Of a DNA stretch of 64,000 bases, positions 16,454 to 17,299 are shown piece after piece. This DNA comes from a plasmid, in sequence record NZ_CP024444.1, one strand, 5' to 3'. The translations under genes and the position numbers were made by a program. Every line of letters begins with the position of its first letter. Positions within the stretch are counted from its first letter, which is position 1. The notes beneath the pieces were generated by a model that saw only the letters and a list, made by a program, of their open reading frames with translations, had not been told where the DNA came from and ran no database searches.

Positions 16454-16760
16454 TGTTAAATTGGGTGACAACTATGTTGACAAACACCGATAGCGTTTAA
16501 TCCATTGGATATAAGCTCTTTCTGTTGATAGGCTTAAATGTCTGTATCGTGCTGTATAAGCAACTTGTTCTAATAGTTTGGGTGATTGTGTATGGCTATT
16601 ATTTTGAATTATCATAATTTGACAAATATGTTTTTACGCTTTAAGATCTTTGGAATATAGCGAGAATAATATAGGATGTCAAAATAGTTATGTTGCAAAT
16701 TCATTTTGGTTATGCGGCAAATTCGCCGTATAACTGTAGTTAGGCATTAGGAGCGAGCGA

Positions 16761-17237
16761 GTGTCAGTCAAGATTGTCCATCTCACAAAAAATGATGTTG
16801 CCTTGTTGCAGTCCATTAATGCTATGTTTAGCGAAGTATTTGATGACGAAGCGAGTTACTCCGCGAACAAGCCATCATCAAGCTACCTTCAAACATTGCT
16901 TGGTACATCCAGCTTCATTGCACTGGCTGCGGTTGACGAGGATAAAGTCGTGGGTGCTATCGCTGCGTATGAGTTACAAAAATTCGAACAGCAAAGAAGC
17001 GAAATTTACATTTACGATCTCGCAGTAATTTCGGTATATCGTAGAAAGGGCATTGCTACGTCTCTTATTCAAGAGCTAAAAACTATTGGCGCTTCACGCG
17101 GCGCATATGTGATTTACGTTCAAGCTGATAAAGGCGAAGAGGATCAACCAGCTATAGAGCTGTATTCAAAACTGGGAACGATTGAGGATGTATTTCACTT
17201 CGATATTGCAGTCGGATGCAGCAACGAAGATGCCTAA
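16761..17237 (+). CDS. aminoglycoside 3-N-acetyltransferase, AAC(3)-I-like (divergent)
   Basis: 158 aa GNAT. Alignable along its length to AAC(3)-Ia (about half identical by eye): TFIALAA, PKFEQ-RSEIYIYDLAV, RRKGIAT-LI, GAYVIYVQAD, LY-KLG. GTG start with a GGAGCGAG RBS. Flanked by a cassette core site GTTAGGC (16742) and the inverse core GCCTAAC (17238). Confidence 0.75.
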   Translation: MSVKIVHLTKNDVALLQSINAMFSEVFDDEASYSANKPSSSYLQTLLGTSSFIALAAVDEDKVVGAIAAYELQKFEQQRSEIYIYDLAVISVYRRKGIATSLIQELKTIGASRGAYVIYVQADKGEEDQPAIELYSKLGTIEDVFHFDIAVGCSNEDA

Positions 17238-17299
17238 CAAAGCGCTGCTGTCCAGTTGGAGTTGGTGAAGTCATCTGTTCCTCCAACCTAAGAACCTGT

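What the first reader, a model, noticed from the sequence alone, without database searches (positions are those of the whole stretch)
16742..17290. Divergent AAC(3)-I-like acetyltransferase with integron-cassette core sites, its attC cut by an IS5-family element
The 158-aa GNAT protein aligns along its length with AAC(3)-Ia gentamicin acetyltransferase but is only roughly half identical by eye, so it may be an unnamed aac(3)-I variant. The gene starts 19 bp after a GTTAGGC core site. Its stop codon is followed immediately by the inverse core GCCTAAC and an 8-bp stem (GTTGGAGG / CCTCCAAC), as in an attC. The IS427-group element begins about 50 bp later.

No integron integrase is in the window. 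This looks like a stray gene cassette captured and then disrupted by IS activity.
Basis: partly seen in the sequence, partly recalled or inferred. Interest (0 to 1): 0.6.

Follow-up and report, generated by a model that had tools for sequence, protein, structure and literature searches.

The report
Gentamicin-resistance cassette in decayed integron
An intact, unnamed AAC(3)-I-type (gentamicin-modifying) acetyltransferase gene sits as the first cassette of a broken-down non-class-1 integron wedged between insertion sequences in a Moraxella-like genome. The identical gene is already in public Acinetobacter baumannii and Moraxella records, so it is a new member of a familiar kind.

Summary
The 158-aa ORF (16761-17237) is real and intact. 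It passes NCBI's AAC(3)-I family model (215 bits, cutoff 200). The identical protein is already in NCBI, named only at family level, from A. baumannii and Moraxella (Faucicola) osloensis.

The cassette reading is right, for better reasons than the heptamers, which occur at chance frequency. Homology to the class-1-integron aac(3)-Id cassette starts exactly at GTTAGGC (16739-16745). Four contigs share the upstream DNA up to GTTA and then carry four different cassettes.

- An integron integrase remnant is present (first 42 codons, 16490-16615, minus strand). A complete 327-aa version, 51% identical to IntI1, exists in metagenomes.
- The attC is not cut by the IS5-family element. Only 21 nt survive (17232-17252). 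Removing the IS restores nothing.

Acinetobacter copies keep the full 72-nt attC inside a 2.74-kb IS-bounded unit found at several sites. Enzyme activity is inferred, not tested.

The parts
14925..16482 (+). IS3-family element, truncated at its 5' end in this window. orfA is at 15045-15386 and orfB at 15362-16453. The right end reads ...GGGTGACAACTATGTTGACA.
   Evidence: NCBIfam NF033516 transpos_IS3 scores 190 bits for orfB. The copy in L007 is complete and starts TGTCAGAATAGTTGTCACCC. Similarity to L007 begins at 14925.
16483..16489 (.). Seven nucleotides (AACACCG) of unknown origin between the IS3 end and the intI remnant.
   Evidence: Sequence read. Alignment A4 shows the window departing from the intact intI sequence to the left of 16490.
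16490..16615 (-). Integron-integrase gene remnant: the first 42 codons, MIIQNNSHTQSPKLLEQVAYTARYRHLSLSTERAYIQWIKRY.
   Evidence: ORF listed. Its top NCBIfam hits are the integron-integrase models NF011946 and TIGR02249. The DNA is nearly identical to the 5' end of a complete 327-aa intI in L101 and L112. That complete intI scores 408 bits on TIGR02249 (cutoff 265) and is 51% identical to IntI1.
16616..16739 (+). intI-cassette intergenic region holding the attI site. An L-like box GTTATGC lies at 16709-16715, and the crossover is G16739|TT.
   Evidence: The window, L001, L101, L102 and L112 are near-identical up to ...CCGTATAACTGTAGTTA and then diverge into four different cassettes. GTTATGCGGCA...GTTAGGC aligns with GTTACGCAGCA...GTTAGGC of attI1.
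16619..16647 (+). Candidate cassette promoter (Pc-like): TTGACA, 17 nt, TAAGAT. A facing candidate intI promoter lies on the minus strand at 16682-16654.
   Evidence: Consensus scan found 4 sites in the region against 2.2 expected. This is a pattern match only.
16740..17252 (+). aac(3)-I gene cassette, truncated at its 3' end. It includes the Shine-Dalgarno sequence AGGAG at 16749-16753.
   Evidence: Homology to the class-1-integron aac(3)-Id cassette and to a P. aeruginosa aac(3)-I cassette starts at GTTAGGC. The segment 16490-17252 is 99.5% identical to the Acinetobacter copies.
16761..17237 (+). AAC(3)-I family aminoglycoside N-acetyltransferase CDS: 158 aa, GTG start.
   Evidence: NF033083 scores 215 bits against a cutoff of 200. 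It is 127/158 identical to AAC(3)-Id with no gaps. PDB relatives are 5hmn, 4yfj, 6bvc and 1bo4.
17232..17252 (+). attC remnant GCCTAACAAAGCGCTGCTGTC: the R'' box and the start of L''. R' and L' are missing.
   Evidence: Alignment with six intact homologous attCs. The attC covariance model finds no hit here.
17253..17288 (.). Thirty-six nucleotides of unknown origin holding a 7-bp hairpin (GTTGGAG / CTCCAAC).
   Evidence: Absent from the Acinetobacter copies. Identical in L007 and L008 only. It is not the native flank of the IS site. There were no hits in PLSDB or in metagenome contigs.
17292..18167 (-). IS5-family element, 876 bp. It has two transposase frames: orfA at 17796-18098, and orfB open from about 17836 down to 17300, joined at a run of A. 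TAA flanks it on both sides (17289-17291 and 18168-18170).
   Evidence: The inverted ends are located. NF033580 scores 96 and 148 bits, and Pfam gives DUF4096 plus DDE_Tnp_1. orfB is open throughout. It is 92-97% identical to IS copies on 21 Moraxella osloensis plasmids.

Best explanation
Window 16490-17252 is the stump of an integron that is not class 1. It holds the first 42 codons of intI (minus strand), the attI site, and the first cassette, which encodes an intact AAC(3)-I-family acetyltransferase of the AAC(3)-Id subgroup.

**Inferred function.** The enzyme uses acetyl-CoA to acetylate the 3-amino group of gentamicin-class aminoglycosides (gentamicin, sisomicin, fortimicin; the established AAC(3)-I profile), so the drug no longer binds the ribosome.

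**Inferred expression.** Transcription probably starts at a Pc-like promoter in the intI-attI spacer, or reads through from the IS3-family element upstream. Translation uses AGGAG, 7 nt, then GTG.

**Shown: the cassette is frozen in place.** The integrase is destroyed and only 21 nt of the roughly 72-nt attC remain, so integrase-mediated excision is no longer possible.

**Shown and inferred: how it moves now.** The stump sits between an IS3-family and an IS5-family element. That whole module occurs in at least two different genomic contexts (shown). It therefore now moves by IS-associated recombination rather than as a cassette (inferred). The attC was truncated by an earlier, unidentified event, not by the IS5-family element.
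For: **Gene identity**
- NF033083 AAC_3_I scores 215.1 bits against a cutoff of 200, over the full length of the model.
- It is 80% identical to AAC(3)-Id with no gaps and the same 158-aa length.
- PDB relatives are all AAC(3)-I enzymes.
- The acetyl-CoA motif RRKGIA and the EIYIYDLAV strand are conserved in those alignments.

**Cassette 5' boundary**
- Homology to two class-1-integron aac(3)-I cassettes begins at GTTAGGC, with unrelated attI1 sequence upstream.
- The window, L001, L101, L102 and L112 share intI and attI DNA up to GTTA and then carry four different cassettes.

**Integrase**
- The 42-codon remnant is 100% identical to the N-terminus of a complete 327-aa IntI.
- That IntI scores 408 bits on TIGR02249 (cutoff 265) and is 51% identical to IntI1, including the IntI-specific insertion.

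**attC**
- Sister copies in Acinetobacter, and homologues in Bowmanella, Rheinheimera and Marinimicrobium, carry a homologous attC of about 72 nt ending in GTTRRRY.
- Their bottom strand folds into the R-box/L-box hairpin, with 2 compensatory pairs.
- The window matches only the first 21 nt.
- Model R1 scores 86-94 bits on the five closest of its six training attCs (the aac(3)-Id attC scores 60) and 24-40 bits on two untrained attCs. Its best score in the window is 11 bits (E = 1.4), and it finds nothing in L007 or L008.

**IS context**
- The junction of the attC stub, the 36 nt and the IS is identical in the window, L007 and L008.
- L007 shares 14925-18171 and differs outside that span.
- The empty site for the right flank shows a different native left flank.

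**Recent spread**
- 763 bp are 99.5% identical between this window and A. baumannii chromosomes, and the protein is 100% identical.
Against: - No experiment shows activity or expression. The promoter is only a consensus match, with 4 sites found against 2.2 expected.
- The event that cut the attC at 17252 is unexplained, as are the origins of the 36-nt and 7-nt fillers.
- Movement of the IS3...IS5 module is inferred from only two full contexts plus one partial one.
- The TAA/TAA flanks of the IS would match by chance half the time, because the element always lands in TWA.
- I could not query CARD or the NCBI Reference Gene Catalog directly. A recently named allele more than 95% identical cannot be strictly excluded, although NCBI's name for the identical protein is only the family name.
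Confidence: 0.8

Rival explanations
1. One reading: a stray cassette whose attC was split by insertion of the IS5-family element, with the other attC half lying just beyond the IS.
For: GCCTAAC overlaps the stop codon, a short hairpin follows, and the IS lies 54 nt downstream. In the IS-excised join, GCCTAACAAA can pair with TTTGTT..AGGC beyond the IS.
Against: - That join folds no better than shuffles (z = +0.6), and it contains no GTTRRRY.
- The DNA beyond the IS is contiguous with other sequence in IS-free contigs L096-L098.
- Homology to intact attCs ends 39 nt before the IS.
- The attC model finds nothing.
Confidence: 0.03
2. The gene is an intact but phenotypically silent relic. It is either not transcribed in this stump or has a substrate range that gives no clinically relevant resistance.
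For: The promoter is only a consensus match. A detailed resistance-gene inventory of A. baumannii DU202 (CP017152), which carries two copies, does not list it. No functional data were found.
Against: - The ORF is 100% conserved across Acinetobacter and Moraxella copies, and the only coding difference seen is synonymous.
- The Shine-Dalgarno sequence and GTG start are conserved with the aac(3)-Id cassette.
- The unit has multiplied to several copies in Acinetobacter genomes.
- Identity-based tools would miss an 80% variant, which explains its absence from the published list.
Confidence: 0.2
3. An ordinary housekeeping GNAT gene that happens to be flanked by chance matches to the integron core heptamers.
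For: GTTAGGC/GCCTAAC occur at chance frequency in the window, 5 against 5.9 expected.
Against: - The boundaries coincide to the base with known cassettes and with an attI used by other cassettes.
- An intI remnant lies next to it.
- Sister copies carry a full attC.
- It scores above the cutoff of the AAC(3)-I equivalog model.
Confidence: 0.02

Closest known systems
aac(3)-Id gene cassette of class 1 integrons (for example the Salmonella Kentucky plasmid NZ_CP092000, intI1-aac(3)-Id-aadA7)
   Same: - The protein has the same 158-aa length and is 80% identical with no gaps.
- The GTG start, the AGGAG spacing and the cassette start at G|TTAGGC are the same.
- GCCTAAC overlaps the stop codon in both.
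- The attC type is homologous in the sister copies.
   Different: - 20% of residues differ, and the variant has no allele name.
- It sits at the attI of a different integron, whose IntI is 51% identical to IntI1.
- In this window the attC is cut to 21 nt and the integrase to 42 codons.
   Same: Same family model, the same GNAT fold relatives in the PDB (1bo4, 6bvc), and the same expected 3-N-acetylation chemistry.
   Different: It is only 53.7% identical and belongs to a different subgroup of the family. AAC(3)-Ic (56%), -If (51%) and -Ib (50%) are similarly distant.
Degenerate integrons and integron remnants (an inactivated intI with trapped cassettes, as catalogued by IntegronFinder-type surveys)
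   Same: A truncated intI, an attI and a cassette that can no longer be excised.
   Different: Here the attC is also destroyed, so the locus would be called neither a complete integron nor a CALIN. It survives only as an IS-flanked fragment.
IS-bounded passenger-carrying units (transporter IS, or IS plus a solo inverted repeat)
   Same: In Acinetobacter the same integron stump lies between a complete IS5-family element and a 36-bp solo copy of its end. The unit is found at four or more sites with matching TWA flanks.
   Different: That arrangement is not in this window. Here the stump lies between two unrelated ISs (IS3 family and IS5 family), which one transposase cannot move as a unit.

Membership tests
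AAC(3)-I aminoglycoside N-acetyltransferases | Scores above the curated cutoff of the family model (NCBIfam NF033083, equivalog) over its full length | tested here: met
   215.1 bits against a cutoff of 200. Residues 5-151 align to model positions 1-145 of 145.
AAC(3)-I aminoglycoside N-acetyltransferases | GNAT fold with an acetyl-CoA-binding motif A (R/Q-x-x-G-x-A/G) | tested here: met
   Pfam PF00583 scores 57 bits. RRKGIA aligns with RRRGIA of 5hmn, RRLGVA of 4yfj and RREGIA of AAC(3)-Id. The fold itself was not modelled.
AAC(3)-I aminoglycoside N-acetyltransferases | Acetylates the 3-amino group and gives resistance to gentamicin, sisomicin and fortimicin | not testable with these tools
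   Needs MIC and enzyme assays. Inferred from 80% identity to AAC(3)-Id.
Named aac(3)-I allele (Ia-If and later) | At least about 95-100% identity to a named allele | tested here: not met
   The best named match is Id at 79.7-80%. The others are Ic 56%, Ia 53.7%, If 51% and Ib 50%. NCBI gives the identical protein only the family name. CARD and the Reference Gene Catalog were not directly searchable.
Integron gene cassette | 5' boundary at the G|TT crossover of an attI or attC site | tested here: met
   Sequences diverge exactly after GTTA in four contigs that share the attI. Homology to the aac(3)-Id cassette starts at GTTAGGC.
Integron gene cassette | Complete attC at the 3' end (R''-L''...L'-R', folding as a bulged hairpin) | tested here: not met
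   Only 21 nt of the attC remain in the window. The feature is met in the Acinetobacter sister copy and in marine homologues.
Integron (platform) | Functional intI with the IntI-specific domain, divergent from attI | tested here: not met
   The window keeps only 42 codons. A complete gene exists in L101 and L112.
Integron (platform) | An attI site used by several cassettes | tested here: met
   Four different first cassettes sit at the same junction.
Class 1 integron | IntI1 and attI1 | tested here: not met
   IntI is 51% identical to IntI1 and scores below the NF011946 cutoff (359 against 435). The attI sequence differs from attI1.
IS5 family (IS427-like group) | DDE transposase of the IS5 family in two frames, terminal inverted repeats, short duplication of the target | tested here: met
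   NF033580 scores 96 and 148 bits, and Pfam gives DUF4096 plus DDE_Tnp_1. The ends are 12-nt perfect inverted repeats. TAA flanks both sides here, and TWA flanks are seen at four Acinetobacter sites. Assignment to the IS427 subgroup rests on my knowledge of that group. ISfinder was not available.

The most novel reading that the evidence does not exclude
The stump comes from a so-far unnumbered class of mobile integron in Moraxellaceae. Its IntI is 51% identical to IntI1, and its closest named relative is an Acinetobacter haemolyticus integron integrase at 78%. This integron collects aminoglycoside-resistance cassettes: this aac(3)-I, and an aadA-like gene at the same attI in L112. Its aac(3)-I stump now spreads as a working gentamicin-resistance gene that identity-based resistome screens miss. 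That spread includes a 2.74-kb IS-bounded unit present in several copies in global-clone-2 A. baumannii chromosomes.
Probability: 0.35. Interest if true: 0.55.

Novelty: new member of a known kind. Interest (0 to 1): 0.35.

Why it matters
If the enzyme is active, clinical A. baumannii and skin- or environment-associated Moraxella share a mobile gentamicin-resistance gene. Allele-identity tools do not report it. The 75%-identical relative in a P. aeruginosa class 1 integron is likewise unflagged in PLSDB's resistance predictions, and a careful inventory of strain DU202 omits the gene.

The locus also records how an integron cassette leaves the integron system. Integrase and attC are both lost, and IS elements take over its mobility. 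Finally, it points to an integron class outside classes 1-5 that carries aminoglycoside cassettes. None of this changes what is known about how such enzymes, integrons or ISs work.

Tried and rejected
- **IS excision.** Excising the IS in silico and folding the join gave no attC (z = +0.6, no GTTRRRY). My first cut was 4 nt off and was corrected.
- **A tempting inverted repeat.** TGTAGTTAG upstream of the cassette and its reverse complement beyond the IS looked like possible element ends. I rejected this because the downstream copy is native DNA next to the permease gene in IS-free contigs, and a 9-mer match is expected by chance.
- **Origin of the 36-nt filler.** I found no match in the loci other than L007 and L008, in PLSDB or in JGI metagenome contigs.
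- **Rfam.** A scan of 14000-19000 gave no hits at E <= 1.
- **Literature.** Seven searches found no description of this variant, of the Acinetobacter unit or of this integron class. Terms containing parentheses, such as aac(3)-Id, cannot be searched, so absence from the literature is weakly supported.
- **ISAba31.** I checked it as a candidate name for the IS and rejected it because its inverted repeats differ.
- **Species-representative genomes.** None carries the identical gene. The closest are marine gammaproteobacteria at 79-91%.
- **TSD logic.** Matching TWA flanks are expected half the time by chance, so I rest the unit-transposition claim mainly on the identical boundaries in different contexts.

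Full report
**What is in the sequence**

The ORF at 16761-17237 (+ strand, GTG start, 158 aa) is real and uninterrupted. It matches Pfam Acetyltransf_1 (57 bits). It also matches NCBI's equivalog model for the AAC(3)-I family over the whole model (NF033083, 215.1 bits, curated cutoff 200). Its five closest relatives with solved structures are all AAC(3)-I-type enzymes: 5hmn, 4yfj, 6bvc, 9mgs and 1bo4.

GTTAGGC lies at 16739-16745, 15 nt before the GTG. GCCTAAC lies at 17232-17238 and contains the stop codon. The IS5-family element runs from 17292 to 18167, set by 12-nt perfect inverted ends, with TAA on each side. Its two transposase frames are open and match NF033580, DUF4096 and DDE_Tnp_1.

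The heptamers alone are not evidence. GTTAGGC or its complement occurs 5 times in the window against 5.9 expected.

**How divergent is the enzyme?**

A tblastn search of 72,556 plasmids gave these identities to named alleles:

| Named allele | Identity |
|---|---|
| AAC(3)-Id | 79.7% |
| AAC(3)-Ic | 56% |
| AAC(3)-Ia | 53.7% |
| AAC(3)-If | 51% |
| AAC(3)-Ib | 50% |

An unnamed AAC(3)-I family gene in a P. aeruginosa class 1 integron is 75.2% identical. Direct BLASTP against AAC(3)-Id gives 127/158 identities, no gaps and equal length.

So 'about half identical to Ia' is correct, but the relevant comparison is Id. The protein is not new to databases. An identical sequence is in NCBI as 'MULTISPECIES: AAC(3)-I family aminoglycoside N-acetyltransferase [Moraxellaceae]', and in UniRef under Faucicola (Moraxella) osloensis. 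It was seen on 95 contigs. The family-level name indicates that no allele designation exists.

Closer unnamed relatives (82-92%) are common in metagenomes. In species-representative genomes the closest are Bowmanella denitrificans (91%), an Alcanivorax MAG (83%), Marinimicrobium (81%) and Rheinheimera (79-80%).

**It is a cassette, and the integron is still visible**

Aligning the window with the aac(3)-Id cassette of a Salmonella class 1 integron and with the P. aeruginosa cassette shows that homology begins exactly at GTTAGGC. Upstream, those two carry attI1, while the window carries something else.

That something else is the platform of another integron. On the minus strand at 16490-16615 lie 42 codons (MIIQNNSHTQSPKLLEQVAYTARYRHLSLSTERAYIQWIKRY). 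Their best family hits are the two integron-integrase models.

A metagenome contig, L101, carries a complete 327-aa gene with the same N-terminus. It scores 408 bits on TIGR02249 (cutoff 265). It is 51% identical to IntI1 without gaps across 317 residues, including the integron-specific insertion, and its best solved relative is VchIntIA. Its closest named relative is an 'integron integrase [Acinetobacter haemolyticus]' at 78%.

The decisive observation is this. The window, the Acinetobacter copy L001, and the contigs L101, L102 and L112 are almost identical from the intI 5' end through the spacer up to ...CCGTATAACTGTAGTTA. They then diverge into four different sequences. The one in L112 reads like the start of an aadA gene. 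That is the signature of an attI site receiving different cassettes.

The spacer also holds a GTTATGC box 24 nt upstream of the crossover, which aligns with the GTTACGC of attI1. It further holds face-to-face promoter-like hexamers (TTGACA-17-TAAGAT on the + strand at 16619-16647, and TTGACA-17-TATATT on the - strand). These are consensus matches only.

**The attC is truncated, but not by the IS**

In eight Acinetobacter loci carrying the identical protein, the stop codon is followed by a 72-nt site: GCCTAAC AAAGCGCTGCTGTCGGACAATTTCTCTGCTGCGCTCCAAAATGGCCGCAGAGCGCGGC GTTAGGT. Homologous sites follow the gene in Bowmanella, both Rheinheimera species, Marinimicrobium and the aac(3)-Id cassette.

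Their bottom strands share an R-box/L-box hairpin with bulges. Of its 22 pairs, 2 show compensatory changes.

A covariance model built from these six sites scores 86-94 bits on the five closest of them and 60 bits on the aac(3)-Id attC. It also recognises two attCs it was not trained on:
- the preceding cassette in Rheinheimera soli (40 bits);
- the aadA7 attC (24 bits).

In the window, with filters off, its best score anywhere is 11 bits (E = 1.4). Nothing is found at 17232-17291, nor in L007 or L008.

The window matches the intact site only through GCCTAACAAAGCGCTGCTGTC (17232-17252). The same junction of attC stub, 36 nt and IS is found in L007 and L008, so it predates the present location.

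The DNA to the right of the IS is native DNA downstream of a permease gene. IS-free contigs (L096-L098) read ...ATACGAAATATCCCTAAGGTATGAAG... at that point. The 36 nt are therefore not the other side of that insertion site. Joining the flanks in silico gives no GTTRRRY and a fold no better than shuffles (z = +0.6). What cut the attC remains unknown.

**Surroundings and mobility**

To the left, an IS3-family element (14925-16482, truncated at its 5' end here and complete in L007) abuts the intI remnant through 7 unexplained nucleotides. L007 shares the whole span 14925-18171 at 96% and differs on both sides. L008 has a different IS cutting deeper into the intI remnant, and a truncated IS5 copy.

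The window itself looks like Moraxella osloensis DNA. The IS copies match 21 M. osloensis plasmids at 92-97%, and the neighbouring regions match Moraxella records. No PLSDB plasmid carries the gene.

In Acinetobacter chromosomes, including A. baumannii DU202 (CP017152), the 763-bp stump is 99.5% identical to the window. There it lies inside a 2.74-kb unit made of these parts:
- a complete IS5-family element, 94.5% identical to the window's;
- an IS66 transposase scrap;
- a longer intI remnant;
- attI;
- aac(3)-I;
- the full attC;
- a katE 3' fragment;
- tRNA-Ser;
- a 36-bp solo copy of the IS end.

The unit has identical boundaries at four or more different sites, each with matching TTA or TAA flanks. 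This is consistent with transposition of the whole unit, although matching TWA flanks are expected half the time by chance. A published inventory of DU202's resistance genes does not list this gene.

**Mechanism**

Shown:
- an intact AAC(3)-I-family ORF with a conserved Shine-Dalgarno sequence and start codon;
- first-cassette position at a non-class-1 attI;
- a destroyed integrase and a destroyed attC;
- IS elements on both flanks;
- near-identical copies in two genera.

Inferred from established knowledge of AAC(3)-I enzymes and of integrons:
- acetyl-CoA-dependent 3-N-acetylation of gentamicin, sisomicin and fortimicin;
- transcription from a promoter in the intI-attI spacer, or read-through from the IS3-family element;
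- no further integrase-mediated movement, with present mobility coming from IS-associated recombination.

**Novelty and verdict**

The gene is an unnamed member of a well-known family, already deposited and auto-annotated. The integron platform belongs to no numbered class that I could test. Seven literature searches found no description of it, but the search tool cannot handle names such as aac(3)-Id, so that absence is weak evidence.

I rate it a new member of a known kind and of moderate interest to resistance genomics. It is ordinary as biology.

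Noticed in passing
L001 4567-7305 (also L002-L006, L009, L010; Acinetobacter chromosomes NBNJ01000002, CP020586, CP017152): A 2.74-kb unit bounded by a complete IS5-family element and a 36-bp solo copy of its end. It carries the integron stump with a full attC, a katE 3' fragment and tRNA-Ser. It has identical limits at four or more different sites with matching TTA or TAA flanks, and is present two to three times per genome. 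It behaves like a transposon.
   Followed up: partly
L101 684-1667; L112 222-1205; L102: A complete 327-aa integron integrase, 51% identical to IntI1, with the same attI as the window but other first cassettes. The first cassette in L112 reads like an aadA gene start. The 99%-identical protein cluster has 220 member sequences in ENA metagenomes.
   Followed up: partly
L001 6538-7131: Right after the attC core GTTAGGT, the reading frame continues into the C-terminal domain of a large catalase (PF18011). It looks as if the cassette's attC had recombined with a secondary site inside a katE gene.
   Followed up: no
L013 3990-4545 (Bowmanella denitrificans): A 91%-identical aac(3)-I homologue with its attC sits alone directly after a chemotaxis gene cluster. 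No GTTRRRY lies upstream, so it is a solitary cassette outside any visible integron.
   Followed up: no
window 17253-17288 and 16483-16489: Two short fillers (36 nt with a 7-bp hairpin, and 7 nt) separate the integron stump from the flanking ISs. Their origin is unknown. The 36-mer has no match in PLSDB or in JGI metagenome contigs.
   Followed up: partly
window 26305-27590: An element about 98.8% identical to ISAba23 of Acinetobacter plasmids. This is further evidence of IS exchange between Acinetobacter and this Moraxella-like genome.
   Followed up: no
window 14352-14920: Short ORFs resembling transposase fragments lie just left of the truncated IS3-family element. The region 14.3-18.2 kb is a pile-up of IS debris.
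   Followed up: no
window 18171-18400 compared with L093-L100: The permease gene (18400-20043, minus strand) has at least two alternative downstream neighbours in other contigs: a CN-hydrolase gene or a glutamate symporter gene. Resolvase and PIN genes lie nearby. This suggests a plasmid-like mosaic region.
   Followed up: partly
L012 2501-2977 (P. aeruginosa plasmid NZ_OL780449): A 75%-identical unnamed AAC(3)-I family gene is the first cassette of a class 1 integron and appears fused or overlapping with aac(6')-29. PLSDB's resistance predictions flag only the aac(6') part.
   Followed up: no
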